Shown here: positions 26,065 to 62,084 of the stretch, in pieces | How the letters are laid out: each line of letters opens with the position of its first letter | How positions within the stretch are numbered: position 1 is the stretch's first letter | DNA from: Candidatus Daviesbacteria bacterium | GTDB taxonomy: Bacteria; Patescibacteriota; Microgenomatia; Daviesbacterales; UBA10151 | Length of the DNA stretch: 64,000 nucleotides | Assembly (NCBI GenBank): GCA_016176335.1 | Contig: JACOXI010000005.1 | Span: 63,391-127,390 of the forward strand | Reading direction: 5' to 3' | Made by a program: the position numbers and the translations under genes | The notes under the pieces: model-generated | Database searches by the model: none | What the model was told of the DNA's origin: nothing | What the model saw: only the letters and a program-made list of their open reading frames with translations

Positions 26065-27375
26065 ATGCACAAAACTCATCTTAAGGAAAAGCATGACCAC
26101 CAAACTTTAAAATTTCCACAAGGTTTCTTATGGGGTGCTGCAACGAGTGCCCACCAGGTTGAGGGCGGAAATATTTACAATGACTGGTGGAAGTGGGAAC
26201 AGGATAGGCCCCCCCATCTTCGTTCAGGAGCAGCCTGTGATCAATATAACCGCTACAGGGAAGATTTTGAGATGGCCAAGGATCTAAACCACAACGCCCA
26301 CAGGCTGTCAATTGAATGGTCCAGAATTGAGCCTCGCGAGGGTGAATTTAACCTTGCCGAGATTGAGCATTATGTTAAGTTACTTAAGCACCTTAAGTCA
26401 CTTAATATGACAGTCATGTTAACCCTATGGCACTTTACACTGCCTGGCTGGTTAGCGGACTGCGGCGGGTGGGAGAACTTTAAAGCCCCTTTTTACTTTG
26501 AGCGTTTTGTTAAAAAAATTGCGCCTGAACTGGGAGAATACGTAGATTTCTGGGTGACCATCAACGAGCCGGGAGTTTATATTTACGAAACTTACATTGA
26601 AAGGGTTTGGCCGCATTCCAAAAAAAGCCTGATTGGCCAGATTAAAACTTATTTAAACCTTGCCTCCGCTCATAGAAAGACTTACAGATTTCTACATTCC
26701 AAAAATGCTTTGGGCAAACCAGTCGGCATGGCCCAAAACATCATGTCATTTGAACCTTACCACAAACATTCAATCATGGAGCAGCTGGCTGTTGTTGTAA
26801 ACGATATATTCACCAATCATCTTTTTTATTTTTTAACCCGAGGCACGCACGATTTCCTGGGAATAAATTACTATTTTCATGCCCGTTTAAAACACCAAGG
26901 TTTAATACCCCAAAAGGTAGACTTTTCTCCTCCAACGCACGAGGTGTCCGATTTAGGCTGGGAAATATACCCCGAGGGTCTTTTTGATGTTTTGAGTGAC
27001 CTTTCCGATGATGTGCCTATTTATATCACCGAGTGCGGCATTGCCTCAACCAACGACGATCGGAGAAACCGCTTTCTTGTAGCCTACTTACAAGAGGTTG
27101 TGAGGGCCATAAAATCAGGTGTAAATGTCAGAGGATTTTTCTATTGGTCTTTAATTGATAATTTTGAGTGGCATTTGGGATTTACACCTAGATTTGGTCT
27201 TATTGAAGTAGATTATGAAACCCAAAAAAGGCACATTCGGCCATCCGCATTAACCTTTGCGGAAATTATTGCTGCAAACGGCATTCCTCACACTTTGATG
27301 AGGTTTTTGGGACACACAGTCACATCAGAAGAGGTTTTAAAAAGATTTCAGAAAATGGAACCACAGCATAAATAA
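26065..27375 (+). CDS. glycoside hydrolase family 1 (beta-glucosidase-like)
   Basis: 436 aa. Acid/base TINEP and nucleophile ITECGIA (ITENG-type) motifs. N-terminal FLWGAATSAHQVEG. Confidence 0.8.
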   Translation: MHKTHLKEKHDHQTLKFPQGFLWGAATSAHQVEGGNIYNDWWKWEQDRPPHLRSGAACDQYNRYREDFEMAKDLNHNAHRLSIEWSRIEPREGEFNLAEIEHYVKLLKHLKSLNMTVMLTLWHFTLPGWLADCGGWENFKAPFYFERFVKKIAPELGEYVDFWVTINEPGVYIYETYIERVWPHSKKSLIGQIKTYLNLASAHRKTYRFLHSKNALGKPVGMAQNIMSFEPYHKHSIMEQLAVVVNDIFTNHLFYFLTRGTHDFLGINYYFHARLKHQGLIPQKVDFSPPTHEVSDLGWEIYPEGLFDVLSDLSDDVPIYITECGIASTNDDRRNRFLVAYLQEVVRAIKSGVNVRGFFYWSLIDNFEWHLGFTPRFGLIEVDYETQKRHIRPSALTFAEIIAANGIPHTLMRFLGHTVTSEEVLKRFQKMEPQHK

Positions 27376-27489
27376 TGCCAAAACTCAAATGTCAAAACTT
27401 AAAACTTAAAGATTTTAGCGCGTAGCGCGAACTTGTTCAGATTTGAGTTGTAGATTTGCGATTTGAGATCTAAGATTTAAGATAAACAA
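27376..27489. repeat. same heptamer-repeat palindromic element family, centre gcgcgtagcgcg
   Basis: aaactcaaatgtcaaaacttaaaacttaaag ... tagcgcgtagcgcga ... agatttgagttgtagatttgcgatttgagatctaagatttaagat. Confidence 0.75.
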
Positions 27490-28386
27490 ATGTACTTACC
27501 AATTTCTATTCTGGCCTTCATTTTAAACGGCATTGCCGTAACAACAGATAAATTCCTGCTTGTAAAAGTTATTCCGGATCCCTTATTTTATGTTTTTTAT
27601 TTCAGCCTGGTAAGTTTTTTGGCTGTATTGCTTCTGCCTTTTACCCATATCCCCACGAGGGAAGTACTTCTTCTTTCATCCGCATCAACCGTGCTTTGGA
27701 CACTCGGTGCCCATTTTATGTTCAAAGCCTTAAAGGTTGGTCAGATTGAAAGAGTGATCCCTGTTATTGGCAGTGTAAATCCCCTGATACTTTTCCTGAT
27801 TGCTTTAGCTAGTGGGACAATATTAACCAATGAGATTTGGGGGATTTTAGTACTCATATTAGGGTTCATATTTTTAACTCTCTCTGCGTGGAAAGGCAAA
27901 ATCCAAAAGGATGAGCTGTTGTTTGAAGGGTTATCCGCCACCCTTTTGGCTTTGTCATATCTGATTTTGAGGCAGGCATATTTAAGAGAAAATTTTATCA
28001 CTGTTTTGGTTTGGTCCAGATTTATCCTGATTCCTGTTGCAATAGTTTTTCTTATGGTACCCCTTCTGCGAAGCAAGGTTATACCCAGTCAATCCCAAGG
28101 TGTCTCACTAATTAAAAAAGGCGGATTGCTTTTTATCATTGGACAAGTTTCGGCAGGAATTTCTCAACTCCTTATCTTTTTTGCCATATCTTTGGCAAAT
28201 CCGGCTTTGGTAAATTCCCTTCAGGGAATTCAATATGTCTTTCTGTTTATAGCGGCACTGCTGCTTTCCAAAAAATTCCCGTTTATTTTCAAAGAGACCT
28301 ATTCAAAAAAAGTTTTGCTGTTTAAAATTTTTGGGATTTTACTGATTGGTTTAGGGCTTTATACATTAGCTTTCTCTTCAGGATAA
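27490..28386 (+). CDS. DMT/EamA-like polytopic membrane protein
   Basis: 298 aa, about 10 TM helices. Confidence 0.45.
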   Translation: MYLPISILAFILNGIAVTTDKFLLVKVIPDPLFYVFYFSLVSFLAVLLLPFTHIPTREVLLLSSASTVLWTLGAHFMFKALKVGQIERVIPVIGSVNPLILFLIALASGTILTNEIWGILVLILGFIFLTLSAWKGKIQKDELLFEGLSATLLALSYLILRQAYLRENFITVLVWSRFILIPVAIVFLMVPLLRSKVIPSQSQGVSLIKKGGLLFIIGQVSAGISQLLIFFAISLANPALVNSLQGIQYVFLFIAALLLSKKFPFIFKETYSKKVLLFKIFGILLIGLGLYTLAFSSG

Positions 28387-28460: not shown

Positions 28461-30854
28461 ATGCCAAAAGGACAAAGAAAAACCAATTTTAAAAACAACC
28501 CTTCTTCTCTTATCCTCCTTTTGGTTCAATTTATCCTGATAAAAATAGGCCAGGCACCTATCTGGGTGATCAAATTATTATTATCTATAGCTGTGGGAGG
28601 CTACCTCCGAGCGCGGCGAGCCCTAGACAAGCCACGTCTGACGTGGCGAGCGTATCCGAGCCATGCACCAAGCGGTGCGTGGCGCAGGACGCTAGCGTTG
28701 GCGAGCAAGAGAGTGTGGTTGCCGACCGAAGCCACAAAGAGGCAGTATCTATTCAATCAATTCTTTCATCGTCGTCGTGGCCGGCCCAGAAAATCTTCAT
28801 TTATTCCCTACTATTTAAATAAATTTAAGTTGTTTGTCAAAAGAAGGGTGCCCAAAAAAACTAAAATAGCCGTAGTTTTTGGAGTGGGTTTAATCATACT
28901 TACTCTTTACACTCAATTCATTCTTAATGCCGCAGATACCCTGCCAAACCCTGATAAACTCATCTCTCCCAGACCTGCCACCACAGAAATATTTGACAGA
29001 AATGGCAAACTTTTATACAGAATTTATGAGGGTACAAATAGAAGTCTTGTCAGAATGGATGAATTACCAAAACATTTAATTTTGGCAACTCTTGCCTCCG
29101 AAGATAAAAATTTTTACAACCATCCGGGAGTGGATCCTGTTGCCATATTCAGGGCTTTCTATCACAATTTAAGGTTTGGCAGGACCGAGGGAGCCTCCAC
29201 CATCACCCAACAACTGATCAAAAACTCTTTTCTTACTCCGGAAAAAACTTACAGTAGAAAAATCAAAGAGGTAATTTTATCTCTGTGGACAGAAACCAGA
29301 TATTCAAAAGAGGAGATTCTTAAAATGTATTTTAATGAAGCTCCATACGGAGGGCCCAACTGGGGAATTAAGGCTGCGGCCAGATCCTACTTTGGCAAGA
29401 AACCCGTAGATTTAACTCTTGCGGAAGCAGCTTTTTTGGCAGGACTTCCCGCCTCCCCCAGCCAATTTTCCCCATATGGCGTCAGAGCCGATTTGGGAAT
29501 AGCGCGTCAAAAACAGGTTTTAAAAAGGATGTTAGATGAACATTACATCACTGACGGGGAGTATACTCAAGCAATATCGGAAAAACTGACATTCAGACCC
29601 CAAAATCAAGACATCAATGCCCCTCATTTTGTGTTCTATATCAGAGATATTCTCGCTCAACGTTACGGAGAGAAAACTGTTTCCCAGGGAGGATTAAAGG
29701 TGATCACCACTTTAGATTTGGGATTGCAAAAGGAAGTTGAAAAAATTATTTCAGATGAAATTGCAAACCTTGCCGGACTTGATGTTAAAAACGGAGCAAG
29801 CATGGTTTTGGATGCAAAAGAGGGCCAGATTTTAGCCATGGTAGGATCGCGGGATTATTCTTACCCGGAATTTGGAAATTTCAATGCCACGCTCGCCCTT
29901 CGTCAACCAGGCTCTTCAATAAAACCCATAACTTATGCCACGGCTTTCAAAGAAGGTTACTTTCCGGGAAATACTATCTTGGATTCTCCTGTCACATTCC
30001 CAGATGGAGCCAGAAATTATTCACCGATAAATTATGACGGGGTGTTTCATGGACCTGTCTCCATCCGCACTGCTTTGGGTTCATCCTTAAATGTCCCTGC
30101 TGTTAAGCTTTTGGCCAGTGTGGGTATTCCCGATATGATCAAAACCGCCCAGGATTTAGGTATCACCACCTTTGATGATCCTAAACGATTTGGTCTGTCT
30201 TTAACATTGGGTGGAGGGGAAGTAAAAATGATGGAGATGATGGGAGTTTATCAAGCTTTTTCCCAGATGGGGCTTGCTCAAAAACCTACCGGCATCTTAA
30301 AAGTGACGGATTCTGTGGGCAATATATTGGAAGAATATGAATCCCAACCCAAACAGGTACTGCAACCGGAGGTGGCATATCTTATTACCAGTATACTTTC
30401 CGATAATACGGCAAGAACTCCGGCTTTCGGACCTAATTCCCTGCTACTTATCAGAGGCAATGAAGTGGCTGTAAAAACAGGCACCTCGGATAATAAAAGG
30501 GATAATTGGACTTTTGGATACACTCCTGATTTTGTGGTTGGGGTTTGGGTGGGCAATAATGACAATACTCCCATGAACCCGCAATTAACATCAGGAATAA
30601 CCGGTGCTACCCCAATTTGGAATAAGATCATAAGAGGGCTTTTGGCACAAAAACCCAGCCTCGGATTCATCAAACCCAGTGGCATCATTGAGGCGCAAAT
30701 TGACGGCAGGAGGGATCTGGCCATTTCAGGCTTCATCCCCAAAGGATTGGTCAAGGTCCGAACCCAAGATGTTCAAACCATCTATTTTGACTCTTTTTCA
30801 TCTTATGCCACTCAATCTGCCCAGGCTGCATTGGAAAGTGGAACTAGGAACTAG
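28461..30854 (+). CDS. penicillin-binding protein 1A (bifunctional GT51 glycosyltransferase / transpeptidase)
   Basis: 797 aa. GT51 motifs (ASEDKNFYNHPGVD, TITQQL). Transpeptidase SxxK (SSIK) and KTGTS. The N-terminal cytoplasmic region contains a GC-rich in-frame element. Confidence 0.85.
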   Translation: MPKGQRKTNFKNNPSSLILLLVQFILIKIGQAPIWVIKLLLSIAVGGYLRARRALDKPRLTWRAYPSHAPSGAWRRTLALASKRVWLPTEATKRQYLFNQFFHRRRGRPRKSSFIPYYLNKFKLFVKRRVPKKTKIAVVFGVGLIILTLYTQFILNAADTLPNPDKLISPRPATTEIFDRNGKLLYRIYEGTNRSLVRMDELPKHLILATLASEDKNFYNHPGVDPVAIFRAFYHNLRFGRTEGASTITQQLIKNSFLTPEKTYSRKIKEVILSLWTETRYSKEEILKMYFNEAPYGGPNWGIKAAARSYFGKKPVDLTLAEAAFLAGLPASPSQFSPYGVRADLGIARQKQVLKRMLDEHYITDGEYTQAISEKLTFRPQNQDINAPHFVFYIRDILAQRYGEKTVSQGGLKVITTLDLGLQKEVEKIISDEIANLAGLDVKNGASMVLDAKEGQILAMVGSRDYSYPEFGNFNATLALRQPGSSIKPITYATAFKEGYFPGNTILDSPVTFPDGARNYSPINYDGVFHGPVSIRTALGSSLNVPAVKLLASVGIPDMIKTAQDLGITTFDDPKRFGLSLTLGGGEVKMMEMMGVYQAFSQMGLAQKPTGILKVTDSVGNILEEYESQPKQVLQPEVAYLITSILSDNTARTPAFGPNSLLLIRGNEVAVKTGTSDNKRDNWTFGYTPDFVVGVWVGNNDNTPMNPQLTSGITGATPIWNKIIRGLLAQKPSLGFIKPSGIIEAQIDGRRDLAISGFIPKGLVKVRTQDVQTIYFDSFSSYATQSAQAALESGTRN
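28596..28735. repeat. GC-rich ~140-bp hairpin-containing element inserted in-frame in the PBP1A N-terminal coding region (homologous to 31640..31775 in nusG)
   Basis: ggaggctacctccgagcgcggcgagccctagacaagccacgtctgacgtggc...gttggcgagcaagagagtgtggttgccgaccgaagcc. Shared blocks with the nusG copy. Internal palindrome gccacgtctgacgtggc. Confidence 0.7.
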
Positions 30855-31359: not shown

Positions 31360-31554
31360 ATGAAAAAAGGAGTTAGTTTTATTAAGGAAGTTTACGAAGA
31401 GTTAGTAAAAGTGGCCTGGCCCACCAGAGAACAAACTATCCGCTACACTGTTTTGGTAATCATTGTCACTTTGGTTGTGGGAGTTTTTTTGGGAGGATTT
31501 GATTATATTTTGACAGCAATAACAGCATTTATACTAGAACACTATGGACGATGA
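31360..31554 (+). CDS. secE: preprotein translocase subunit SecE
   Basis: 64 aa. VKVAWPTREQT motif followed by a single TM. Immediately upstream of nusG. Confidence 0.7.
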   Translation: MKKGVSFIKEVYEELVKVAWPTREQTIRYTVLVIIVTLVVGVFLGGFDYILTAITAFILEHYGR

Positions 31555-32308
31555 TTTAAAACTCAAAACTCAAATGTCAAATGTCAAAGCTGGAGAGGAT
31601 CAGACAGCAAAATCTGAACCAGTTAATGATATAAGCGAAGGGAGACTGCCTCCGAACGCAGCGAGCCCTAGAGTCGCCGAAGGCGACCGTACCCGAGGCG
31701 AAGCCGAAGGCGAGCCGCAGGGCGTAAGTACCGAAGGTACAGTTGGCGAGCAAGAGAGCGGGGCGGTCGACCGATCAGGCAATCCTAACGCCAAATGGTA
31801 TGTTGTTCATACTTATTCCGGTCATGAAAACAAAGTGGCGCACACTTTAAAGCAGCGGATTGAATCCGAACATTTGGAAGAGAAAATTTTAGATGTTTTG
31901 GTGCCTATGCAGGATAAAATTGAAATAAAAGGCGGCAAAAAAGTAAGCATTAAAGAAAAAATCTTCCCCGGCTATATTTTGGTAAAAATGGTTTTGGAAG
32001 ATAGTTCCTGGCTGGCTGTCAGAACAACTCAAGGTGTCACCTCCTTTGTGGGTATGGGTAATAAACCCACCCCGATCTCCGATGCGGAGGTGGCCACCAT
32101 AGTCAAATTTACCCAAGAGGAGGCTCCTGTTTATAAGCAGGTTTTCTCTGTTTCGGATACTATCAAAATTGTGGACGGGCCTTTTGCAGATTTTATTGGT
32201 AAAGTGGATAATGTGGATGAGGAAAAAGGCAAGGTTAAGGTTTTGGTATCAATATTCGGGCGTGAAACACCAGTGGAGTTGGATTTTCTGCAGGTGCAGA
32301 AGATATGA
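31544..32308 (+). CDS. nusG: transcription termination/antitermination factor NusG with ~75-aa repeat-derived N-terminal extension
   Basis: NGN start KWYVVHTYSGHENKV and KOW C-terminus. No in-frame start codon near the NGN domain, so the extension (heptamer tract plus GC-rich element) appears to be translated. Confidence 0.85.
   Translation: MDDDLKLKTQMSNVKAGEDQTAKSEPVNDISEGRLPPNAASPRVAEGDRTRGEAEGEPQGVSTEGTVGEQESGAVDRSGNPNAKWYVVHTYSGHENKVAHTLKQRIESEHLEEKILDVLVPMQDKIEIKGGKKVSIKEKIFPGYILVKMVLEDSSWLAVRTTQGVTSFVGMGNKPTPISDAEVATIVKFTQEEAPVYKQVFSVSDTIKIVDGPFADFIGKVDNVDEEKGKVKVLVSIFGRETPVELDFLQVQKI
31640..31775. repeat. GC-rich element copy inside the nusG N-terminal extension
   Basis: gggagactgcctccgaacgcagcgagccctagagtcgccgaaggcgac...gttggcgagcaagagagcggggcggtcgaccgatcagg. 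Palindrome gtcgccgaaggcgac. Read in a different frame than the PBP1A copy. Confidence 0.7.
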
Positions 32309-32805: not shown

Positions 32806-33723
32806 ATGGGCAAGACAAAAGTAGCCATCATTGATGATTCAGCGCAAGAAGAGAATAGAGAATCAAGAATAAAGAATAAAGCCTCTAAGAAAAGGGCTAA
32901 AGCGACCGAAGTGAAGTCTGATGCAGCTTCTCGACTGTTTGAGCCAGGCGAGGATGGCCAAAAGGCTCAAGCTTTGACGAGCGTGACGCCATCCGAGCCG
33001 ATTCCGCCAAAGGCGGAAGGCGAGTTGGAGAAGCAAATTCAGACGAACGAGAGAGTACAACCTAAAAAACCTCAAAAACCAGGCAAAGCTAAGCCCCGCT
33101 CCAAGAAATACCAAGAGGTCGTAAAAGATTTGGATAGAACTAAATCCTACCCTTTAGGTGAGGCTATAGAACTTAGTAAAAAACTGTCCTATTCTAAATT
33201 CACAGGTACACTTGAAGCACATATCAATACCACTCAAACAGGAATCCGTGGTTTAGCCTCCCTTCCCTATTCTTCAGGTAAAAAATTACGCATCCTGGTC
33301 TTTGGAAAAGGTGCCAAAGACGCAGGTGCAGATCTGGTGGGTGATGATTCCACCATTGAGGCTATCTCCCAGGGCAAAATTGATTTTGACCTTCTGATAA
33401 GCACTCCTGAATGGATGCCAAAGCTTGCCAAAGTGGCAAGGGTTTTGGGACCTAAGGGGCTCATGCCCAATCCCAAAAATGGCACCATCACAGACGACCT
33501 CAAAAAAGCAGTGGAAGGATTTCAAGCCGGAAAAACAGAATACAAAACAGAGGCCAAAGCAGCAGTAATCCACCTTGGGCTGGGAAAGTTGAATCAACCT
33601 ACCGAGGAGTTATCTGCCAATGTTCAAACTTTGCTTCAAACTTTAGGCAAAACCAGAGTTAAAAAAGTCACTCTTTCCCCCACCATGGGACCATCAGTTA
33701 AAGTTGATCTAGCTTCCATGTAA
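32806..33723 (+). CDS. rplA: 50S ribosomal protein L1 with ~90-aa N-terminal extension
   Basis: L1 core starts near KKYQEVVK...EAIELSKK. N-terminal Lys/Glu-rich extension carries a GC-rich stretch. Confidence 0.85.
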   Translation: MGKTKVAIIDDSAQEENRESRIKNKASKKRAKATEVKSDAASRLFEPGEDGQKAQALTSVTPSEPIPPKAEGELEKQIQTNERVQPKKPQKPGKAKPRSKKYQEVVKDLDRTKSYPLGEAIELSKKLSYSKFTGTLEAHINTTQTGIRGLASLPYSSGKKLRILVFGKGAKDAGADLVGDDSTIEAISQGKIDFDLLISTPEWMPKLAKVARVLGPKGLMPNPKNGTITDDLKKAVEGFQAGKTEYKTEAKAAVIHLGLGKLNQPTEELSANVQTLLQTLGKTRVKKVTLSPTMGPSVKVDLASM

Positions 33724-37136: not shown

Positions 37137-40100
37137 ATGGTTAGCCCAAAAAAATCTCTGGTGGCCATTATTGGCCTGATAGCAGTTTCCCTGTGGATTT
37201 TAATTCCCCAGTCTGCTTTTGCCACTTCAAGTAAATATTATGATTTTGGCCCATATTATGGCGGTTCTTCTGTTTTAGGTTTTTCCTTCTCCAACTTGGA
37301 AAACCTGCCTGTCCCTCAAATTGCGGATAGCCTGATGCCACCTAAAGCAGGCGGTATTTTGCCTGACAATCCTTTTTATGCTTTGGAAAAGGTGGTGGAG
37401 AATGTCCAACTTACTTTTACATTTGATCCTGTAAAAAAAGAGCAGTTGAGGCTTGATATTGCTAGCGAAAGATTATCTGAAGCTAAAACTTTAATGGATC
37501 AAGGTAAAACCCAAGCAGCCTCTCAAGCCCTGGATGATTACGGCCAGACCTTAACTGCCCTCAGCCAAAATCTAGCGGCCATTGCTCAAAGAACCGATCC
37601 TGCTGCCCAAGCTTTAGTCAACAAAGCAGAGGAGGTATCTGCTACCCAGGCAGTGGTTACTCAAGCCTTAAGTTTAACTTCTTCTCCTGCTCAAGCTGAA
37701 AGCTGGACCCAAGCCACCAACATCACCAGATACTCTCTTGACAAGGTAGCCGAGGCCAAAGGCGAACCTGCTATACCTACGGAGTTTTCTTCCAGTATCC
37801 AACAACTCAAAGAACAGGGGCTGATTTCGGAAGAAGAAAGTAATAAGTTATACAGTTTCAAAAACCGAAGCGAAGTCAGGGACGAGCTTAACAAACTCTC
37901 TTCCTCGGGCCAATTTCCTATTTCGGAAGCTGTTAGATTAGACGATGCTGTCACCAAATATTTCCCGGATGTACAGAAACAGTACCTAACTAATTTACAG
38001 GTTGTAGAATTAAAATCCTATCAAACTTTACCCCAGCCTGACAGCAAAACGGCAGAAGAGCTGAAAAAGTGGCAAGCTAATCCAGCTACCCCCCCATCAA
38101 ATGATATCAAACCATATTTGTGGTATAACCGAGCCCAGGATTTAGCCCGCGATGTTGACCTGTCGAACTTTTCACCAACCCAGCAGGGAGACTTAGTCAA
38201 ATTCTACCCTCAAGCTGTTCAAACTAACCCAACTTATTCCCCTCCGCCCAGCCCTTCTCCTGTACCAGCTGACGCCTCGCCTGCCCCCTCACCCACCTCT
38301 GCTGTTCCTGCCTCACCTACACCTTCCCCCACACCTCCTGCTGCCGAACCTTATCTGCAAGGTACAGGTGGAGCTTTGCCTGGTGAGCCTTTCTATTTTA
38401 TAAAGCAGTGGGGAGAGGGTTTAACCTATACCTTTACTTTTGATCCGGCCCAGAAAGCCAGACTGAGGATGCAGGAGGCTGAACGCCGTCTGGCTGAAGC
38501 CGAAGCACTGGCCAATGATCCCAAGAAAGCCACCTTATATGAATCTACCCTCAAAAGTTACCAGCAAACTCTCGCTGATGCTTCAAACATCGTCAAAAAT
38601 CTGAAAGATACCAAAGCATCTGAAGAGGCGGCAGCCAGATTAGAAGCTCAGGCAGCCAGACATGAGGTGGTTTTTGAAAAAGGGCTCTTGCCTCCTCCTC
38701 CTCAAAATCCCACACTGACCTCTGATGTTATCAGGACAGCGGAGGATGCCATGGACAGAAGCGCTGATGTTTTGGACCGACCGGCGCTGCCGCCTGTCTT
38801 GGCCTCTCGTCTGCAAGATCTCAAAGCCCAGGGCCTGATCCTGCCTGAAGAAGCAGAAGATTTAACCCGATCTGCTTCGCGAGAAGAGGCGCGGGAAAAA
38901 ATTAGAAAATTGGTTGAGCTTAACACTTTTCCCCCGGCTGATGCCAAAAAACTGGATGAAGCCCAAGCTGTAGTTTCCCCTGCAGACTACAATCAGCTGG
39001 TGGAGGTCAGGAAAGTTGAGGAGTTGCAAAGTTTGAGATCAGTCCAAACTGATCTGGCTCAAACTCCCACCTTAAGATCCACAGCCACCACTTTAGCCCA
39101 AAAGGAGGTGGCTTTAACTAACTCTTTTGATCCTACACTGATCAAACCAGAAGATCTAGGAGGTAAAGAAAACTTAATTAAAGCCTATGAAAGACTGACA
39201 GCGGTTCCTCGTCCTATTAATGGCGGGCAATTTGGTCCCGAAGTCACACCTGGCGCTCAACCATCAGCTACTCCCAGACCTCAAGATGCGGTTTTGTCTG
39301 CTTGTCCTGAGGGGGCTACCTTCAAACAATCTGAAGGCTGTATTTGGGCAGATAATGGCAAGCGGATTAATGATTATGACCAGTATAAATGTGAAGGCCC
39401 AAGACAATATTATTCTTTTGCTGTTAAGAAATGTGTGGCTTCTGACTCAACTCGCGGTTATCAAGAAGATGCCCAGCCAATCTGTCCAGTAGGTTATTCC
39501 TGGAACTGGCAGGCTCAAAGCTGTCAGACAGCAACAGGCGGGATTCTTCCTTTCCCCAGCCCCTCGCCTGTAGTAGACCCTATTAATGATGAGGAACGAG
39601 AGGCCAGGTCAAAGAGTTGTCCTGAGGGAGCCTCCTATCAACCGCCCAATGGCTGTGTTTGGGATAAAACTGGCAAATCAGTTTATGATCCTGAGCAATA
39701 TAGATGCGGTCGAGGTCAATACTATTCATTTGAGGAAGGGAAATGTGTTGCCTCGCCAAAAGAGGGAGAACCTTATCCCAAAAATACCACTCCAGTTTGT
39801 AAAGAAGATGGAGCTTATTGGAGTTGGAACGAAGGAAAATGTATTCAAGCTGTTTTTCCATCAGAGCAAAAAGGAGGACCGGGGGCAATTATAATTGATG
39901 AGTTTAGACCTCCTTTTATCGCTCCCAACAGTCCATTCTATATTATTAAACAAGCAGCGGAAAGAGTACAACTTGCTATAGCATTTACTGCCCCAGCCAG
40001 AGAACGAGTCAGCTTGTCTCAAGCTAAAGAAAGATTAATTGAAGCTGCGGACGCTCTAAAAAGAAATGATGAAGGAGCTGTTAAAAAAGCTTTAGACACT

Positions 40101-41801
40101 TATACTTCTATGATGCAGGATATTGTATCTGACGTATCTAAGGAACAGCTGACAGAGGGGGCCAAAATCGAAATCGGGAAGCTGTTAGCCGAGAAATCAG
40201 TTGAGCAAAACCTGCTATTGCAGAAGCTTCAAGCTTTGGCCCCAAGTGCACAAGATACGGCCATCAGTGCTGCGGTATCAGCCACCATCTTAGGGGTGGA
40301 TAAAGCAGCAGATGTTGCTGGCGAGCCGCCAATTCCAGATGAACTCAGAAGCAAAATTGAAGCTTTGCCGGAAAAGATGATCTCAGAAGAAGACAAAAAG
40401 AAACTTTTGGAGATGAAGTCTCGAGTTGAAGCCAGACTCCAAATAGGAGGCTTGGTAGCAAACGGGGCTTTAACCCAAACTGACACCAGCTTCTTAAATG
40501 AGGATTTTGATGCTGTTGATCAAAACGCCAGAATCAAGGTGGAGGAACTCAAAAAACTAGAGGAGATTGCCGATGCTGCCGAGACCAAAGATAAACTGGA
40601 AGAAAAGATAGGTAAGAACGAAGAAATTGCCCAAAAACTCCAAGACTTTGAGAAAACCTTTGAGCCGGGCAAAGAGGTACCAGCTGAAATCCGTCCTTAT
40701 ATCCGGCTAACCCGCATTAACGAGATAGCCCAAACCGTCAGACCCGATACTATCAACCTTGAAGACTTCTCAAACCGCAAGGATCTTATGTTGGCAGTAG
40801 CCACTCTACAGGAAGAATACAGGCCCACCATAGATGCTTTAAGACAAGTAGAAGACTTTAGAAGAAGAAATCCCAATGCTGCCTTGCCGCTTACTTTGGC
40901 CCGGGTTGCGGCTTTATCCGTAAGCCTTGGGGTAAGAGAAAAAGCCGGACCATGTTATCTACCAACACCCCTCTTCCCGGCCAACACCCCTTGTCCGGCG
41001 CCGGGAGCAGCCATCCCCATTAGTTCCTTTACCGGGATCGGGCCTACCATTGTTGATGAGTTTCGCCCCGGCTGGCCAGGTTCAGCATATCCGTCAGCCT
41101 ATCAAACAGGTCCTACTACCGATAAAGATGGCAATCCCTTAGTCTATGGCCAAGGGCCTCAACCAACCAGCGCCGGGGTTTGTCCTTCAGGTTCTCACTG
41201 GATGTATGATAGTGGTGGCTGGTGTATGTCAAACAGTGGCAACTACAGTTCCTCCTATTCCTACACGCCTTCTGGCACTGGTTCCGGTTACACCCCTTAT
41301 AGTCCTTATTACACTGCCCCGGGAGCGCCTCCGGCAAGCTATGGCTACCCAGGATCCGGTTCTTATTCTAACTTCATAAACACTTACTCGCCTCCAAATT
41401 ACTGGAGTCCTGCCCCCACCAATTACACTACCACCCCACCTACTGGCACGGTGCCAGGATCTGGACCCAGGCCAACTGCTCCTGGTCAGTGTCCATCAGG
41501 GTATCATTGGATGTCTGATTCCGGTGGCTGGTGTATGGCTGACGGACCAACCTATGTACCCAGCGGCTCACCATACAATTATCCGGCGGGTACAACTACC
41601 AGTGGCGTGCCGTCAGGAAGCTTGAATTGCGGCTCCCAGAGCTTTAATCCGGCTACCGGAAGGTGCAATGATGGCGCCTGCCCCGGAGGCTTTAACTGGG
41701 ACGGCTCAAGATGTGTAGCCAGCAGTCCCAGTTACTATTCTCCTAACTTAAACCGGATATTACTGGGATGGCAGAGGCTGTATTCGCACAAGCCCTACTG
41801 A
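37137..41801 (+). CDS. giant secreted modular cysteine-rich protein (N-terminal 1554 aa before frameshift)
   Basis: Signal peptide. Three ~55-aa modules (P.NPFY.L/IK...TFTFDP...A.ERL.EA). Four Cys-rich ~45-aa modules (CPEG...C.W...GK..YD...Y.C....YYSF...KCVAS). G/S/Y/T-rich tail with CPSG[SY]HWM.DSGGWCM repeats. Confidence 0.7.
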   Translation: MVSPKKSLVAIIGLIAVSLWILIPQSAFATSSKYYDFGPYYGGSSVLGFSFSNLENLPVPQIADSLMPPKAGGILPDNPFYALEKVVENVQLTFTFDPVKKEQLRLDIASERLSEAKTLMDQGKTQAASQALDDYGQTLTALSQNLAAIAQRTDPAAQALVNKAEEVSATQAVVTQALSLTSSPAQAESWTQATNITRYSLDKVAEAKGEPAIPTEFSSSIQQLKEQGLISEEESNKLYSFKNRSEVRDELNKLSSSGQFPISEAVRLDDAVTKYFPDVQKQYLTNLQVVELKSYQTLPQPDSKTAEELKKWQANPATPPSNDIKPYLWYNRAQDLARDVDLSNFSPTQQGDLVKFYPQAVQTNPTYSPPPSPSPVPADASPAPSPTSAVPASPTPSPTPPAAEPYLQGTGGALPGEPFYFIKQWGEGLTYTFTFDPAQKARLRMQEAERRLAEAEALANDPKKATLYESTLKSYQQTLADASNIVKNLKDTKASEEAAARLEAQAARHEVVFEKGLLPPPPQNPTLTSDVIRTAEDAMDRSADVLDRPALPPVLASRLQDLKAQGLILPEEAEDLTRSASREEAREKIRKLVELNTFPPADAKKLDEAQAVVSPADYNQLVEVRKVEELQSLRSVQTDLAQTPTLRSTATTLAQKEVALTNSFDPTLIKPEDLGGKENLIKAYERLTAVPRPINGGQFGPEVTPGAQPSATPRPQDAVLSACPEGATFKQSEGCIWADNGKRINDYDQYKCEGPRQYYSFAVKKCVASDSTRGYQEDAQPICPVGYSWNWQAQSCQTATGGILPFPSPSPVVDPINDEEREARSKSCPEGASYQPPNGCVWDKTGKSVYDPEQYRCGRGQYYSFEEGKCVASPKEGEPYPKNTTPVCKEDGAYWSWNEGKCIQAVFPSEQKGGPGAIIIDEFRPPFIAPNSPFYIIKQAAERVQLAIAFTAPARERVSLSQAKERLIEAADALKRNDEGAVKKALDTYTSMMQDIVSDVSKEQLTEGAKIEIGKLLAEKSVEQNLLLQKLQALAPSAQDTAISAAVSATILGVDKAADVAGEPPIPDELRSKIEALPEKMISEEDKKKLLEMKSRVEARLQIGGLVANGALTQTDTSFLNEDFDAVDQNARIKVEELKKLEEIADAAETKDKLEEKIGKNEEIAQKLQDFEKTFEPGKEVPAEIRPYIRLTRINEIAQTVRPDTINLEDFSNRKDLMLAVATLQEEYRPTIDALRQVEDFRRRNPNAALPLTLARVAALSVSLGVREKAGPCYLPTPLFPANTPCPAPGAAIPISSFTGIGPTIVDEFRPGWPGSAYPSAYQTGPTTDKDGNPLVYGQGPQPTSAGVCPSGSHWMYDSGGWCMSNSGNYSSSYSYTPSGTGSGYTPYSPYYTAPGAPPASYGYPGSGSYSNFINTYSPPNYWSPAPTNYTTTPPTGTVPGSGPRPTAPGQCPSGYHWMSDSGGWCMADGPTYVPSGSPYNYPAGTTTSGVPSGSLNCGSQSFNPATGRCNDGACPGGFNWDGSRCVASSPSYYSPNLNRILLGWQRLYSHKPY

Positions 41802-42588
41802 TACTTCTTACTATTCTCCCAGCTCGTACTCGCAAGGTTGCACTCCAGGTTATTACTGGAATGGCAGTAAATGTGTGGCAGGTAGCAATGAAGGTTCAGG
41901 GTGGTCAGATACAGCTGCCAGATCCCAATCCTGGTGTCAACCTCCCTCAAACGGCTGTGGCTCTAATTCTTATTGGGATTATGGTAGCTGTTACTGCAGC
42001 AGCTCAACCACTTATTATGGAGGTAGTGGTCCCTCACCCAGCAATCAATGCCAGGGTCTAAGCTGCGGTGGAGGCGCATGGTTAGATTACTCAACCTGTA
42101 GTTGTAAGTATTCAGGTGGTTCTGGAACTAGTTCTACAGGATCTACCATCACTTGTTATCCTCCTTCCGCAGGTTGTCCAGGCGGCTGGTATGATTATGG
42201 CACTTGCAGCTGCAAAACCAGCTACTCCGGCACAAGTTCCGGCTCAGGAGGAACAACTACCACCGGTTCTTGTCCTTCAGGCTCCCATTGGATGAGTGAT
42301 AATGGTGGTTACTGCATGTCTGATACCGGAGGAGGCACATCCTCTTCCGGCTCTACCACCACTTCATCCGGAGGATCAACATCAAGCGGATCCTGTCCTT
42401 CGGGATATCATTGGATGAGCGATAATGGTGGCTGGTGCATGCAAGACGGCGGAGGCTCGACCTCAAGTAGCGGCTCAACAACTACTACCAGTGAACCGGC
42501 TCCGACCACTACCACCACTACCACATCTGAACCGGCCCCCACACCTACCAGTTCCGAACCTGCGCCAACACCTGCTCCCAGCCCTTAG
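41752..42588 (+). CDS. C-terminal continuation of the giant protein in the +1 frame (frameshift near 41745..41760)
   Basis: The frame holding ORF 41875..42588 encodes TGYYWDGRGC...CTPGYYWNGSKC, then CPSGSHWMSDNGGYCM and CPSGYHWMSDNGGWCM repeats identical in type to the upstream ORF. Ends in a T/P-rich tail. Confidence 0.55.
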   Translation, partial: TGYYWDGRGCIRTSPTDTSYYSPSSYSQGCTPGYYWNGSKCVAGSNEGSGWSDTAARSQSWCQPPSNGCGSNSYWDYGSCYCSSSTTYYGGSGPSPSNQCQGLSCGGGAWLDYSTCSCKYSGGSGTSSTGSTITCYPPSAGCPGGWYDYGTCSCKTSYSGTSSGSGGTTTTGSCPSGSHWMSDNGGYCMSDTGGGTSSSGSTTTSSGGSTSSGSCPSGYHWMSDNGGWCMQDGGGSTSSSGSTTTTSEPAPTTTTTTTSEPAPTPTSSEPAPTPAPSP

Positions 42589-42801
42589 TCCTTAATGTCA
42601 GTCAATACGACACATTGACAAACATGACATCATAAGTTAAAATAATTTGGCTTAAGACAGTGAGTGGAGCGAAGCGACATCCTGAGCATAGTCGAAGGAT
42701 GCTTTACACCATAAATCTCACCGAGGCAGTTTAGTATATCGTAAGATTGAATATCGTATATCGGAAAACCGATAAACAATAAACGATTAACGATAAACCA
42801 A

Positions 42802-42826
42802 AAACGCCTCAGAAAGGCGTTTTTTA
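42802..42826 (+). terminator. rho-independent terminator-like hairpin plus T-run abutting the rplJ start codon
   Basis: aaacgcc-tcagaaa-ggcgttttttaa, then ATG of rplJ 2 nt later. A-run on the 5' side makes it bidirectional in form. Confidence 0.5.
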
Positions 42827-42827
42827 A

Positions 42828-43364
42828 ATGGCTAAAACTAAACAACAAAAAGAGCAAGCAGTACAACAAATACAAGAAAAGCTGGGCAAGGCCAAAGCTA
42901 TAGTTTTTGCTGACTATAAAGGCTTGACCATGAAGCATTTATCCGATTTAAGAAATAAATTGCGTGATGTTAATGGCGAATTCAGTATAACCAAAAATAG
43001 CTTACTTGAACGTGCTCTTCCCGCCTCCAACTTTGAAGGTCCAACAGCCACTCTTTTTGCGTATGATGATCAAATTACCCCTATTAAAATTTTGGTCAAA
43101 GCGCTAAAGGATGCTGCCATTGGTAAAGTTAAGGCGGGGTTTTTAGGAGTTGATGTCCTGGATGAAAACAAGATTCTTACACTGGCCAGTCTGCCCTCTA
43201 AAGATGAACTGAAAGGTCAAGTTGTGGGACTATTGGCAGCTCCACTTCAAGGTATGGTATCAGTACTACAAGGAAATCTAAGAAATTTAGTGCACGTAGT
43301 GCGCGAACTTCGTTCAGTATATACATTATCAGAAATTCAAAAAGCGAAAGGAGGTGAAAGTTAG
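42828..43364 (+). CDS. rplJ: 50S ribosomal protein L10
   Basis: 178 aa. Start MAKTKQQKEQAVQQIQEKLGKAKAIVFADYKGLTMKHLSDLR. Confidence 0.85.
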   Translation: MAKTKQQKEQAVQQIQEKLGKAKAIVFADYKGLTMKHLSDLRNKLRDVNGEFSITKNSLLERALPASNFEGPTATLFAYDDQITPIKILVKALKDAAIGKVKAGFLGVDVLDENKILTLASLPSKDELKGQVVGLLAAPLQGMVSVLQGNLRNLVHVVRELRSVYTLSEIQKAKGGES

Positions 43365-43440
43365 TATATCGTAAATCGGTTATCGTATATCGGAAACACA
43401 CAAACCATAAACGATAAACCATAGACGATCAAACAACCAT

Positions 43441-53519: not shown

Positions 53520-53601
53520 AAAGTATTATACATAAAAAATCTCAAATGGTAAATCTCAAATGTCAAAACTAGATTTGCGTTTTGCGATTTGAGTTTTGAG
53601 A
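53520..53601. repeat. same heptamer-repeat palindromic element family
   Basis: aaatctcaaatggtaaatctcaaatgtcaaaactagatttgcgttttgcgatttgagttttgagatt. Confidence 0.75.

Positions 53602-60791: not shown

Positions 60792-62084
<1,293 letters not shown>

What the first reader, a model, noticed from the sequence alone, without database searches (positions are those of the whole stretch)
28596..28735. GC-rich ~140-bp hairpin element inserted in-frame into PBP1A and NusG in two different reading frames (RPE-like intragenic element)
28596..28735 in PBP1A and 31640..31775 in nusG share long blocks: ctccga[gc/ac]gc[gg/ag]cgagccctaga...gttggcgagcaagagag...g[tc]cgacc. Each contains a perfect palindrome (gccacgtctgacgtggc, gtcgccgaaggcgac). 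GC content is far above the host genes. Both host ORFs stay open. The element is read in frame +0 in one gene and +1 in the other, the third frame holds TAG, and the encoded peptides (GGYLRARRALDKPRLTWRAYPSHAPSG... versus GRLPPNAASPRVAEGDRTRGEAEGEP...) are unrelated. This pattern was described for Rickettsia palindromic elements, where a selfish palindromic element inserts into genes and is translated as a disordered segment.
Basis: partly seen in the sequence, partly recalled or inferred. Interest (0 to 1): 0.85.

Follow-up and report, generated by a model that had tools for sequence, protein, structure and literature searches.

The report
Translated GC-rich hairpin element in Daviesbacteria
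A GC-rich, hairpin-forming stretch of about 135-165 bases sits in frame inside several unrelated genes of Daviesbacteria (PBP1A, NusG, ribosomal protein L1, a UvrD-like helicase) and is conserved as a nucleic-acid fold, not as a peptide, so it looks like a new low-copy counterpart of the Rickettsia palindromic elements.

Summary
Two ~62% GC copies lie in a 40% GC Candidatus Daviesbacteria contig, at 28595-28727 in PBP1A and 31640-31772 in nusG. They share blocks that shuffled sequence does not give. Both host ORFs stay open, and the two copies are read in different frames.

I found 13 distinct copies in independent assemblies:
- nusG: 5
- rplA N-terminal extension: 5
- PBP1A: 1, plus a partial one
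- inside a UvrD-like helicase: 1
- intergenic, with stops in all frames: 1

Relatives have sites without the element in PBP1A, in rplA and in most nusG genes.

Conservation is at the nucleic-acid level. A multi-helix fold has 95% of cells paired. Nine of 23 pairs show compensatory changes. G·U pairs outnumber A·C 17 to 2 on the sense strand. Variable sites show no codon-position bias. Two reading frames and frame mosaics are used.

Copies do not cluster by host gene, so they move or recombine between loci.

Best reading: a low-copy, RPE-like mobile or recombining hairpin element that survives only in frame, in permissive disordered protein segments. It is not an RPE family member. High copy number, a transposition mechanism and actual translation are not shown. 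A functional sense-strand RNA role is not excluded.

The parts
28581..28742 (+). Element copy 1 (subtype A) inside PBP1A, as covered by the covariance model. The core, from GGGAG to CGACC, is 28595-28727 (133 nt).
   Evidence: Covariance-model hit of 138 bits, E 6e-30. Sequence. Lengths.
28595..28607 (+). Copy 1, 5' strand of the closing helix P1 (GG-GA-GGCTACCTC). It pairs with 28715-28727.
   Evidence: RNAalifold pairs, columns 17-29 with 188-200. Pair counts.
28616..28622 (+). Copy 1, helix P2 5' strand GCGAGCC. It pairs with GGCGAGC at 28700-28706 and has a tandem G·A in the middle.
   Evidence: Pair 44:173 covaries across copies (U-A in 8, C-G in 5).
28631..28647 (+). Copy 1, hairpin 1: perfect 7-bp stem GCCACGT/ACGTGGC with loop CTG.
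28651..28689 (+). Copy 1, conserved CGTATCCGAG block plus hairpin 2. TCC at 28655-57 pairs with GGA at 28687-89. The hairpin stem is 28661-28682.
   Evidence: Pair 108:147 covaries (C-G in 7, U-A in 6).
28697..28727 (+). Copy 1, 3' conserved block GTTGGCGAGCAAGAGAG followed by the P1 3' strand GGTTGCC-GACC.
   Evidence: (D19).
31626..31787 (+). Element copy 2 (subtype B, with an extra hairpin 3) inside the nusG N-terminal extension. The core is 31640-31772 (133 nt).
   Evidence: Covariance-model hit of 137.6 bits, E 7e-30. Sequence.
31673..31687 (+). Copy 2, hairpin 1: GTCGCC-GAA-GGCGAC.
31728..31740 (+). Copy 2, hairpin 3: GTACC-GAA-GGTAC. The subtype B copies have it (window nusG, L004, L008, L014); subtypes A and C lack it.
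28461..30854 (+). Host gene 1, a class A penicillin-binding protein (797 aa). The insert encodes residues about 46-89. That lies between the conserved N-terminal block LLLVQFILIKIGQ and the conserved RGRPRK..FIPYYL block.
   Evidence: Pfam Transgly at 182-357 and Transpeptidase at 446-723. Orthologues P0126-P0128 and L004 share both flanking blocks and lack the insert.
31544..32308 (+). Host gene 2, nusG (254 aa). The insert encodes residues about 33-77. The NusG N-terminal (NGN) domain starts at residue 84. There is no in-frame start codon between the element and the NGN domain.
   Evidence: Pfam NusG and KOW. Sequence. Orthologues.
32806..33723 (+). rplA (ribosomal protein L1) with an N-terminal extension. 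This site is occupied by the element in at least 7 relatives but not here. The GC island at 32922-33035 may be a decayed relic.
   Evidence: Pfam Ribosomal_L1. No covariance-model hit. L1 proteins with the element. The relic test was not significant.

Best explanation
This is a small, non-autonomous, GC-rich structured repeat found in a subclade of Candidatus Daviesbacteria.

One strand, the sense strand of every host gene seen, folds into:
- a long closing helix (P1) and a second helix (P2), each interrupted by tandem G·A pairs;
- two or three short hairpins, mostly capped by C-GAA-G-type triloops.

Proposed mechanism:
1. The element is copied between loci at the DNA level, by an unknown transposition-like step and/or by ectopic gene conversion between existing copies.
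2. New copies persist only where they do no harm. Those places are intergenic DNA, or coding regions that tolerate about 40-55 extra disordered residues. Examples are the hypervariable N-terminal extensions of NusG and L1, the cytoplasmic N-terminal tail of PBP1A, and a surface loop of a UvrD-like helicase.
3. Inside genes the element is transcribed and translated with its host. Selection therefore keeps it stop-free and keeps its indels in multiples of three. The frame that is used fits the local charge context: acidic in NusG and L1, strongly basic in PBP1A.
4. The fold is maintained because only structurally intact copies seed or convert other copies. Copies that lose it decay into ordinary linker sequence.

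Shown:
- multi-locus distribution;
- sites without the element in relatives;
- conservation of a nucleic-acid fold with covariation;
- frame behaviour;
- a copy tree that disagrees with the host genes.

Inferred:
- translation of the insert;
- the copying mechanism;
- the reason the fold is kept.
For: Family and distribution:
- 13 distinct copies come from NCBI, JGI, ENA and Logan assemblies.
- Hosts: nusG in 5, rplA in 5, PBP1A in 1 plus a partial copy at the start of L002, a UvrD-like helicase in 1, and an intergenic site in 1. The helicase identity is supported by Pfam UvrD-helicase and UvrD_C. The intergenic copy lies 20 nt upstream of a divergent gene and has stops in all three frames.

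Sites without the element:
- PBP1A in L004 and in P0126-P0128.
- rplA in the window.
- About 26 of 30 inspected NusG orthologues.

Conservation is of the nucleic acid, not the peptide:
- Two frames are used. Two nusG copies switch frame inside the element.
- Variable sites per codon position are 13, 15 and 14.
- Between the window and L004, the element is 84% identical. The nusG core is 79% and the upstream extension 64%.

Frame maintenance:
- The distance between the 5' and 3' blocks is 63, 69, 72, 84, 93 or 117 nt in all genic copies read in a single frame.
- It is not a multiple of three only in the two mosaics and in the intergenic copy.

Fold:
- 23 pairs, with 95% of cells paired. Sliding the partner gives 28-42%.
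- 9 pairs have changes on both sides, against 0-4 in the slid controls.
- Covariation score is 0.292, against at most 0.114.
- 0/500 shuffles reach the observed percentage paired or the observed covariation score; 1/500 reaches the count of pairs changed on both sides.
- Pairs 44:173 and 108:147 switch cleanly between C-G and U-A. All four combinations of the two occur, so this is not a two-lineage artefact.
- Hairpin 1 keeps a stem with four different sequences.

Movement between loci:
- The neighbour-joining tree mixes host genes. L012 rplA and L013 nusG are 87% identical.
- The nusG copy of L001 is 92% identical to the window PBP1A copy but 81.5% identical to the window nusG copy. The nusG cores of those two genomes are 89.7% identical.

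Permissive sites:
- The encoded peptides fall on the disordered side of the charge-hydropathy plot.
- Another Daviesbacteria nusG carries an unrelated palindromic element in frame in the same region.
Against: - Copy number is low. There are 2 copies in 64 kb. No further covariance-model hit was found in about 150 kb of flanking DNA from relatives.
- Exact-pattern scans gave only 2 hits in 185,579 species genomes and 5 in the metagenome collection. That is unlike a proliferating selfish repeat.
- There is no consistent target-site duplication.
- No transposase or other partner gene was identified.
- No copy was found in phage, plasmid or viral collections.
- Four of the five host sites lie in or next to one gene cluster (PBP1A-ASCH-secE-nusG-rplK-rplA). 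Local duplication plus gene conversion could therefore explain much of the pattern without true transposition.
- All 12 genic copies are in sense orientation, and G·U outnumbers A·C 17:2 on the sense strand. An RNA-level function explains this at least as well.
- No transcript or peptide data were available.
Confidence: 0.6

Rival explanations
1. It is a functional cis-acting RNA module. On this view the fold is kept by host-level selection because the structured sense-strand RNA does something in the mRNA. Possibilities are binding a protein (for example ribosomal protein L1, as an autoregulatory mimic of the 23S rRNA L1 stalk), slowing ribosomes, or setting mRNA stability or processing. Translation of the segment would be a tolerated side effect.
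For: - Strong covariation.
- Folding z-scores of -2.7 and -2.8 for the sense strand, against -2.0 and -0.2 for the antisense strand.
- G·U outnumbers A·C 17:2 on the sense strand.
- 12/12 genic copies are in sense orientation.
- 10 of 13 copies sit in the 5' coding part of nusG or rplA, in the nusG-rplK-rplA cluster.
- No canonical L1 leader is visible upstream of rplK here.
- The most conserved core, GG-GA-GGCU...GCC-GA-CC, equals E. coli 23S rRNA positions 2123-2130 and 2159-2165 at the H77/H78 junction. It also resembles the E. coli L11-operon L1 site GGG-GA-GCCUC..GAGGC-G.
- Rfam has no family for that leader, so Rfam silence is uninformative.
Against: - The element is dispensable. Most NusG orthologues lack it, the window rplA lacks it, and the L001 nusG copy has lost the 5' strand of P1.
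- PBP1A, a UvrD-like helicase and an intergenic site are unrelated hosts.
- Known L1 sites have an asymmetric internal loop closed by a second helix (PMC3616713). Here the loop is a symmetric tandem G·A.
- The element lies 95-190 nt downstream of the start codons, not at the ribosome-binding site.
- The match to 23S rRNA is short and was noticed after the fact.
Confidence: 0.2
2. There is no real mobility. On this view there were one or two ancient insertions in the PBP1A-secE-nusG-rplK-rplA neighbourhood. Local segmental duplication, gene conversion between neighbouring copies and repeated loss followed. The fold persists simply because GC-rich hairpins are thermodynamically self-reinforcing during conversion.
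For: - Three of the four host genes lie within 5 kb.
- The same subtypes occur in nusG and rplA of different genomes, and copies are mosaics of shared modules.
- The L001 nusG copy looks converted by the PBP1A-type copy.
- Copy number is very low.
- There is no target-site duplication.
Against: - The UvrD-like helicase copy (L007) and the intergenic copy (L011) lie in unrelated contexts. At least some long-range copying therefore took place.
- Clean compensatory changes at several pairs need selection on pairing, not only conversion.
Confidence: 0.12
3. It is an intron-like or otherwise excised RNA segment, removed from the mRNA so that it is never translated.
For: It is a compact, conserved, sense-strand fold closed by a terminal helix.
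Against: - All 12 genic copies are stop-free in the host frame, and their internal length differences are multiples of three. The one intergenic copy has stops in all frames and a length that is not a multiple of three.
- There is no Rfam hit to group I or II introns or to self-cleaving ribozymes, even at E up to 10.
- At 133-166 nt it is below the size of known self-splicing introns (general knowledge).
Confidence: 0.03
4. It is a shared protein module, a conserved peptide linker spread by recombination and selected at the protein level.
For: Most copies are read in one frame and give similar peptides, GRLxPNAASxR...VxEQESGxADR.
Against: - The PBP1A copy is read in another frame and gives an unrelated, basic peptide. 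Two nusG copies switch frame midway.
- There is no third-position excess of variable sites.
- An intergenic copy carries stops.
- Base-pair covariation is present.
- An exhaustive HMMER search of 1.84 billion representative proteins with the nusG-frame peptide found only one L1 fragment.
Confidence: 0.02

Closest known systems
Rickettsia palindromic elements (RPEs; Ogata et al. 2000, as summarised in PMC10969869 and PMC1166351)
   Same: - A palindromic, hairpin-forming repeat of about 150 bp or less.
- Found both between genes and inside unrelated protein-coding genes.
- Genic copies keep the host ORF open and should add a short extra segment to the protein.
- Presence varies between related genomes.
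- The mobilising mechanism is unknown.
   Different: - Unrelated host (Candidate Phyla Radiation, not Alphaproteobacteria).
- GC-rich in an AT-rich genome.
- Very low copy number so far, against 44 insertions in R. conorii and 728 copies in R. felis.
- No single conserved peptide: two frames plus mosaics are used, whereas each RPE family encodes a conserved peptide.
- Only sense orientation has been seen.
- The fold is multi-branched, with demonstrable covariation.
Bacterial miniature inverted-repeat elements (MITEs) that form in-frame fusions (ERIC, BOX, QMITE1 and Anabaena MITEs; review PMC10969869)
   Same: A small non-autonomous repeat with complementary ends that is co-transcribed with its host genes and sometimes translated.
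   Different: - No consistent target-site duplication.
- No related insertion sequence was seen.
- The terminal complementarity is a 7-10 bp imperfect helix with covarying, not fixed, sequence.
GC-rich hairpin clusters in AT-rich organelle genomes (yeast, fungal and placozoan mitochondria; from general knowledge, and PMC7813641 appeared in the literature search)
   Same: GC-rich mini-hairpins that invade an AT-rich genome, including coding regions, evolve by gain and loss of hairpin modules, and promote recombination.
   Different: This is a bacterial chromosome. The unit here is a defined multi-helix element of about 135-165 nt with conserved blocks, not a loose cluster.
L1-binding autoregulatory mRNA sites that mimic the 23S rRNA L1 stalk (PMC3616713, PMC2175363)
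   Same: - The core sequence GG-GA-GGCU...GCC-GA-CC matches the H77/H78 junction of E. coli 23S rRNA.
- Ten of 13 copies lie in nusG or rplA, within the nusG-rplK-rplA cluster.
- In Methanococcus the L1 site lies at the 5' end of the L1 message; PMC3616713 places it directly preceding rplA, and I recall (not checked here) that it sits just inside the coding region.
   Different: - Known sites are 37-49 nt stems with an asymmetric loop. Here the loop is a symmetric tandem G·A inside a 133-nt element.
- Copies also occur in PBP1A, a helicase and intergenic DNA.
- The element is dispensable in most relatives.
- Binding is untested.

Membership tests
Rickettsia palindromic elements (RPE) | Sequence homology to one of the described RPE families of Rickettsia | not testable with these tools
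   No RPE models or sequences are available in the tools. The host is Candidatus Daviesbacteria and the element is 62% GC, so homology is very unlikely. This is inference.
Rickettsia palindromic elements (RPE) | Palindromic repeat of about 100-150 bp able to form a stable fold | tested here: met
   Core of 110-166 nt. MFE z-scores of -2.7 and -2.8. Consensus fold with 95% of cells paired.
Rickettsia palindromic elements (RPE) | Copies inside ORFs of unrelated genes that leave the host frame open, plus copies in non-coding DNA | tested here: met
   PBP1A, nusG, rplA and a UvrD-like helicase are all open across the element. The intergenic copy is L011.
Rickettsia palindromic elements (RPE) | High copy number per genome (44 insertions in R. 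conorii, 728 copies in R. felis; PMC10969869, PMC1166351) | tested here: inconclusive
   There are 2 copies in 64 kb. No extra copy was found in about 150 kb of DNA from relatives. Collection scans gave 2 and 5 exact-pattern hits. No complete genome could be scanned.
Rickettsia palindromic elements (RPE) | Each family encodes one conserved peptide (single reading frame) | tested here: not met
   Two frames and two frame mosaics are used. There is no codon-position bias in variable sites.
Miniature inverted-repeat transposable element (MITE) | Terminal inverted repeats | tested here: inconclusive
   Helix P1 near the ends is 7-10 bp, imperfect and covarying rather than fixed. The exact-seed inverted-repeat search did not report it.
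Miniature inverted-repeat transposable element (MITE) | Target-site duplication flanking each copy | tested here: not met
   The longest flanking direct repeats differ in length and position. Examples are TATCTAT in the PBP1A copy and TGAAGCTG in L013. Two copies have none of 5 nt or more.
Miniature inverted-repeat transposable element (MITE) | A related autonomous insertion sequence with the same ends | not tested
   Only 64 kb of the source genome and short flanks of relatives were available.
REP/BIME repeats mobilised by RAYT transposases | 20-40 bp extragenic palindromes with a GTAG or CGTC tag, in high copy number (PMC3733652) | tested here: not met
   The unit is 110-166 nt, mostly intragenic and low-copy, and has no terminal GTAG or CGTC tag.
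L1-binding autoregulatory RNA | Stem with an asymmetric internal loop containing a G-A pair and an unpaired A, flanked by conserved G-C pairs (PMC3616713) | tested here: not met
   The G-GA-GGC and GCC-GA sequences are present. The predicted loop, however, is a symmetric tandem G·A closed directly by GG/CC.
L1-binding autoregulatory RNA | Located on the transcript of rplK/rplA, at or before the regulated start | tested here: inconclusive
   Five copies lie in the rplA 5' coding region and five in nusG upstream of rplK-rplA. Copies also occur in PBP1A, a UvrD-like helicase and intergenic DNA.
L1-binding autoregulatory RNA | Specific binding by ribosomal protein L1 | not testable with these tools
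   This needs a gel-shift or filter-binding assay.
Self-splicing intron or self-cleaving ribozyme | Match to a known catalytic RNA family, with no constraint on reading frame | tested here: not met
   No Rfam match at E up to 10. Genic copies are stop-free and their length differences are multiples of three.

The most novel reading that the evidence does not exclude
The element may be a dual-use module: a sense-strand structured RNA kept by host-level selection that is translated at the same time. Its invariant core, GG-GA-GGCU...GCC-GA-CC, would mimic the 23S rRNA L1-stalk junction. The copies in rplA and nusG would then act as L1 (or other protein) binding sites that tune expression of the nusG-rplK-rplA cluster. 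The module would occasionally be copied to other genes. That would make it a mobile, protein-coding-compatible regulatory RNA in bacteria of the Candidate Phyla Radiation.
Probability: 0.12. Interest if true: 0.8.

Novelty: new member of a known kind. Interest (0 to 1): 0.58.

Why it matters
In-frame, translated palindromic repeats are textbook-rare and are associated almost only with Rickettsia. A sequence-unrelated family in a Candidate Phyla Radiation lineage would show that the phenomenon recurs in small, AT-rich genomes.

It would also give a concrete source for the long, hypervariable, low-complexity N-terminal extensions of NusG, L1 and PBP1A seen in these bacteria.

The family is small and its fold is well defined by covariation. 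That makes it a tractable case for a question left open for RPEs: is such a fold kept for the element's own propagation or for an RNA-level function?

There is also a practical point. The element breaks or chimerises metagenomic assemblies (L002, P0129) and can mislead start-codon annotation.

Tried and rejected
Searches that found nothing:
- Rfam at gathering thresholds over the whole window, and at E up to 10 around both copies and over five other copies. Only tRNAs and chance hits appeared.
- An exact 24-mer of the 5' block in the genome collection gave 0 hits. The gapped two-block pattern then gave 2.
- Two viral-contig scans and BLAST against plasmids and phages gave nothing.

Searches of limited value:
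- A protein search with concatenated peptides from four sense and three antisense frames recovered only NusG and L1 hosts.
- The exhaustive representative search with the nusG-frame peptide gave one true hit.
- Extending the source genome beyond the window gave only about 4.8 kb of new sequence, with no copy in it.
- The structural papers on L1-RNA complexes were not held. The L1 comparison therefore rests on PMC3616713, PMC2175363 and the E. coli sequences I fetched.

Tests that were negative or inconclusive:
- Relic in the window rplA. Smith-Waterman z-scores reached at most 2.9 against shuffles, which is not significant. Only the position and the GC island support a relic.
- Target-site duplications were inconsistent.

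Considered and rejected:
- A diversity-generating retroelement template/variable repeat pair. The differences are not adenine-specific and they covary.
- CRISPR or a tandem array. The copies are dispersed and single.
- An intein. The conservation is at the nucleic-acid level, in two frames.
- An assembly artefact. The same element appears in independent NCBI, JGI, ENA and Logan assemblies.


Full report
OBSERVATION

The window is a 40% GC contig of Candidatus Daviesbacteria, in the Microgenomates of the Candidate Phyla Radiation (CPR). Its NusG is 100% identical to an NCBI Daviesbacteria protein from a 160-kb contig.

- The two stretches share a 33-nt 5' block (88% identical), a CGTAYCCGAG block and a 42-nt 3' block (79% identical).
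- The 24-nt and 17-nt patterns each occur exactly twice in 64 kb. Shuffles predict 0.00 and 0.10 matches.
- These are the two highest GC spikes in the window, 0.69 and 0.68 against a mean of 0.404.
- Both quoted palindromes are perfect.

THE ELEMENT IS INSIDE CODING SEQUENCE

ORF 28461-30854 has Pfam Transgly and Transpeptidase domains. ORF 31544-32308 has NusG and KOW domains.

For PBP1A:
- The N-terminal block M..GQRK...LLLVQFILIKIGQ lies upstream of the element. The block RGRPRK..FIPYYL lies downstream.
- Both blocks are conserved, in one frame, in orthologues that lack the element (L004, P0126-P0128).

For nusG:
- The ATG overlaps the secE stop.
- No in-frame ATG, GTG or TTG lies between the element and the NusG N-terminal (NGN) domain.

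For rplA in relatives, the start peptide MGKTK..IDDS is conserved upstream of the element.

The element is therefore either translated or removed in a frame-neutral way.

The two window copies are read one base apart. PBP1A reads CTC CGA GCG and nusG reads CCT CCG AAC. The third frame carries the conserved TAG. The peptides are unrelated, with pI 12.0 and net charge +9 in PBP1A against pI 4.5 and net -4 in NusG. All fall on the disordered side of a charge-hydropathy plot.

A FAMILY WITH SEVERAL HOSTS AND WITH SITES THAT LACK IT

NusG orthologues have a hypervariable N-terminal extension; total lengths run from 178 to 316 aa. A few carry related peptides.

I fetched DNA for these orthologues, ran two gapped exact-pattern scans (2 hits in the genome collection; 5 in the metagenome collection), and ran a peptide search. 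Together these gave 13 distinct copies (alignment A5):

| Host | Copies |
|---|---|
| nusG | window, L004, L013, L016, and L001 (5'-truncated) |
| rplA N-terminal extension | L008, L010, L012, L014, L015; also proteins P0122 and P0123 |
| PBP1A | window, plus a partial copy at the very start of contig L002 |
| UvrD-like helicase, internal | L007 (Pfam UvrD-helicase and UvrD_C) |
| Intergenic | L011, 20 nt upstream of a divergent gene, with stops in all three frames |

Sites that lack the element:
- PBP1A in L004 and in P0126-P0128.
- rplA in the window (no covariance-model hit).
- About 26 of 30 inspected NusG orthologues.

The copies come from independent NCBI, JGI, ENA and Logan assemblies, so this is not an assembly artefact.

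CONSERVATION IS OF THE NUCLEIC ACID, NOT THE PEPTIDE

- Most genic copies use the 'nusG frame' (GRLxPNAASxR...VxEQESGxADR). The PBP1A copy uses the +1 frame.
- The L004 and L013 nusG copies read the 5' half in the PBP1A frame and the 3' half in the nusG frame, because of an indel in hairpin 1.
- Variable sites in the conserved blocks fall 13, 15 and 14 on codon positions 1, 2 and 3. There is no sign of purifying selection on the peptide.
- Between the window and L004, the element core is 84% identical. The nusG core is 79%, and the extension upstream of the element is 64%, near noise.
- Translation still leaves a mark. The distance between the 5' and 3' blocks is 63, 69, 72, 84, 93 or 117 nt in every genic copy read in one frame. 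It is not a multiple of three only in the two mosaics and in the intergenic copy.

THE FOLD

RNAalifold on A5 gives the following:
- A closing helix P1: GG-GA-GGCUGCCUC paired with GGGGCUGCC-GA-CC, containing a tandem G·A.
- A helix P2: GCGAGCY paired with RGCGAGC, again with a tandem G·A.
- A helix formed by YCC of the middle block with GGR, closing hairpin 2.
- Hairpin 1, and in subtype B a hairpin 3.

Counting the pairs:

| Measure | Observed | Partner slid by 1-3 columns |
|---|---|---|
| Cells paired | 95% | 28-42% |
| Pairs changed on both sides | 9 of 23 | 0-4 |
| Covariation score | 0.292 | at most 0.114 |

None of 500 shuffles reaches the observed percentage paired or the observed covariation score. 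One of 500 reaches the count of pairs changed on both sides.

Further points:
- Pair 44:173 is U-A in 8 copies and C-G in 5. Pair 108:147 is C-G in 7 and U-A in 6.
- All four combinations of these two pairs occur. The covariation is therefore not just two lineages.
- Hairpin 1 keeps a stem with unrelated sequences: GCCACGT/ACGTGGC, GTCGCC/GGCGAC, TCCGGC/GCCGGA and CCCCGC/GCGGGG.
- Loops are mostly C-GAA-G-type triloops.
- Excluding the truncated copy, G·U cells outnumber A·C cells 17 to 2.
- Single-sequence z-scores are -2.7 and -2.8 for the + strand, against -2.0 and -0.2 for the - strand.

The folding strand is therefore the + strand, which is the sense strand of all 12 genic copies. This does not separate RNA from single-stranded DNA. 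From general knowledge, GNA triloops and Y-GA-R tandem mismatches are also very stable in DNA.

COPY NUMBER AND MOVEMENT

Covariance model R1 finds only the two known copies in the window. In all fetched loci, about 150 kb of flanks, it finds nothing beyond the copies that brought those loci in. Viral, plasmid and phage collections are negative. The family is low-copy and, so far, confined to a Daviesbacteria subclade.

The copies nevertheless do not evolve as fixed orthologues.
- The neighbour-joining tree mixes host genes. L012 rplA and L013 nusG are 87% identical, and L004 nusG groups with L008 and L014 rplA.
- Modules such as the hairpin 1 type, hairpin 3 and the two covarying pairs are shuffled between copies.
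- In the close relative L001 (nusG core 89.7% identical to the window), the nusG copy is 92% identical to the window PBP1A copy but 81.5% identical to the window nusG copy.
- A contig that starts inside the PBP1A copy (L002) shows that the repeat is long and similar enough to break an assembly.
- A protein that joins the rplA 5' end, the element and PBP1A-downstream sequence (P0129) shows that it can also mis-join an assembly or recombine.

No consistent target-site duplication was found.

MOST LIKELY MECHANISM

I commit to an RPE-like reading (0.6). The element is a non-autonomous structured repeat that is copied or converted between loci at the DNA level. It survives only in permissive places and is carried through transcription and translation as a disordered insert. 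It keeps its fold because intact copies are the ones that propagate.

Shown: distribution, sites without the element, fold, frame behaviour, and the disagreement between copy relationships and host genes.

Inferred: translation, the copying step, and the reason for fold maintenance.

Two observations support the 'permissive landing pad' idea:
- Another Daviesbacteria nusG (L021) carries a different palindromic element in frame in the same region, GTCATTGCGAG...CTCGCAATGAC.
- The frame used matches the local charge: acidic in the NusG and L1 extensions, basic next to the RRRGRPRK tail of PBP1A. This second point is inference.

RIVALS

(a) A functional sense-strand RNA (0.2).
- For: covariation, strand asymmetry, 12/12 sense orientation, and the concentration in nusG and rplA.
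- The invariant core GG-GA-GGCU...GCC-GA-CC equals E. coli 23S rRNA positions 2123-2130 and 2159-2165 at the L1-stalk H77/H78 junction. It also resembles the E. coli L11-operon L1 site.
- Rfam has no family for that leader.
- Against: known L1 sites have an asymmetric loop (PMC3616713), whereas here it is a symmetric tandem G·A. The element is dispensable in most relatives and is truncated in L001. PBP1A, UvrD and intergenic hosts do not fit.

(b) Local duplication plus gene conversion, without true mobility (0.12). This fits the clustering of PBP1A, nusG and rplA within 5 kb. It does not fit the helicase and intergenic copies.

(c) An excised, intron-like segment (0.03). The stop-free, multiple-of-three behaviour contradicts it.

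(d) A protein-level module (0.02). The frame data contradict it.

COMPARISON WITH KNOWN SYSTEMS

The element behaves like the Rickettsia palindromic elements. These are about 150 bp and palindromic, occur in genes and between them, and form in-frame fusions (PMC10969869). R. felis has 728 copies, 85 of them in ORFs (PMC1166351).

It is not an RPE family member. The phylum and the sequence differ. The single-conserved-peptide feature was tested and is not met. High copy number was not found.

It lacks the target-site duplication of MITEs and the size and tag of REP/BIME repeats. It resembles the GC-rich hairpin clusters of AT-rich mitochondrial genomes in composition and in its modular gain and loss of hairpins. 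Literature searches found no description of such elements in the CPR or Patescibacteria.

VERDICT

This is a real feature and a new family of a known kind: translated intragenic palindromic repeats. It is of moderate interest. The open question that would raise its value is whether the sense-strand fold has an RNA-level function.

LIMITS

- No complete genome could be scanned.
- Collection scans needed exact patterns.
- No expression or proteomic data were available.

Noticed in passing
window 27366-27490, 31551-31604, 53523-53605, 56202-56334, 61085-61246: AT-rich repeats with a 7-nt period (CTCAAAT/GTCAAAA...) recur between genes, often as inverted pairs (for example 56215-56262 with 56280-56327). 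One block lies inside the 5' end of the nusG ORF and would be translated as KLKTQMSNVK (D1-D3, I1-I2).
   Followed up: no
window 42673-42702, 44581-44610, 61189-61218: A second small hairpin repeat, ATCCTGAGCATAGTCGAAGGATG, occurs three times in the window (D14).
   Followed up: no
window 38200-43900 (for example 41164-42486): A region at about 45-53% GC holds Cys-rich coding repeats of about 123 nt, with the DNA motif TGTCC.TC.GG...CA.TGGATG...GGTGG.TGGTG. It contains several further GC spikes (D4/D6/D11).
   Followed up: no
window 32900-33060 (rplA N-terminal extension): A GC island (0.61) lies at the position where relatives carry the element. It has short matches to the element such as ACGAGCGT, CGCCAAAGGCG and GAGAGAGT. 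It may be a decayed relic, but local alignment scores were not significant (z at most 2.9).
   Followed up: partly
L021 6066-6172 and 6205-6245: Another Daviesbacteria MAG has a different palindromic element in frame in the nusG N-terminal extension. Its termini are GTCATTGCGAG...CTCGCAATGAC and it encodes VIASEAEGEVKQ...IASDSTSPRNDE. A tandem GTTCAGGATGACAAAAA follows. Related peptides occur in several other NusG orthologues (P0013, P0015, P0024, P0038, P0053).
   Followed up: partly
L007 5078-7999 (- strand): The UvrD-like helicase that hosts an element copy also carries an intein (Pfam Intein_splicing and Hint).
   Followed up: partly
protein P0129; contig L002 1-44: P0129 joins the rplA 5' end, an element copy and out-of-frame sequence homologous to the region downstream of the PBP1A copy. 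Contig L002 begins inside the PBP1A copy. The repeat evidently breaks or chimerises assemblies, or mediates recombination.
   Followed up: partly
L016 185-380: This nusG copy carries a nested ~39-nt insertion of one or two extra small hairpins (the GACCTT...AAGGTC stem is predicted) inside the 5' block of the element, still in frame.
   Followed up: no
L008 (CAZFZP010000034.1): A 7.9-kb contig binned as 'uncultured Gammaproteobacteria' carries a Daviesbacteria-type rplA N-terminus with the element. It is probably mis-binned.
   Followed up: no
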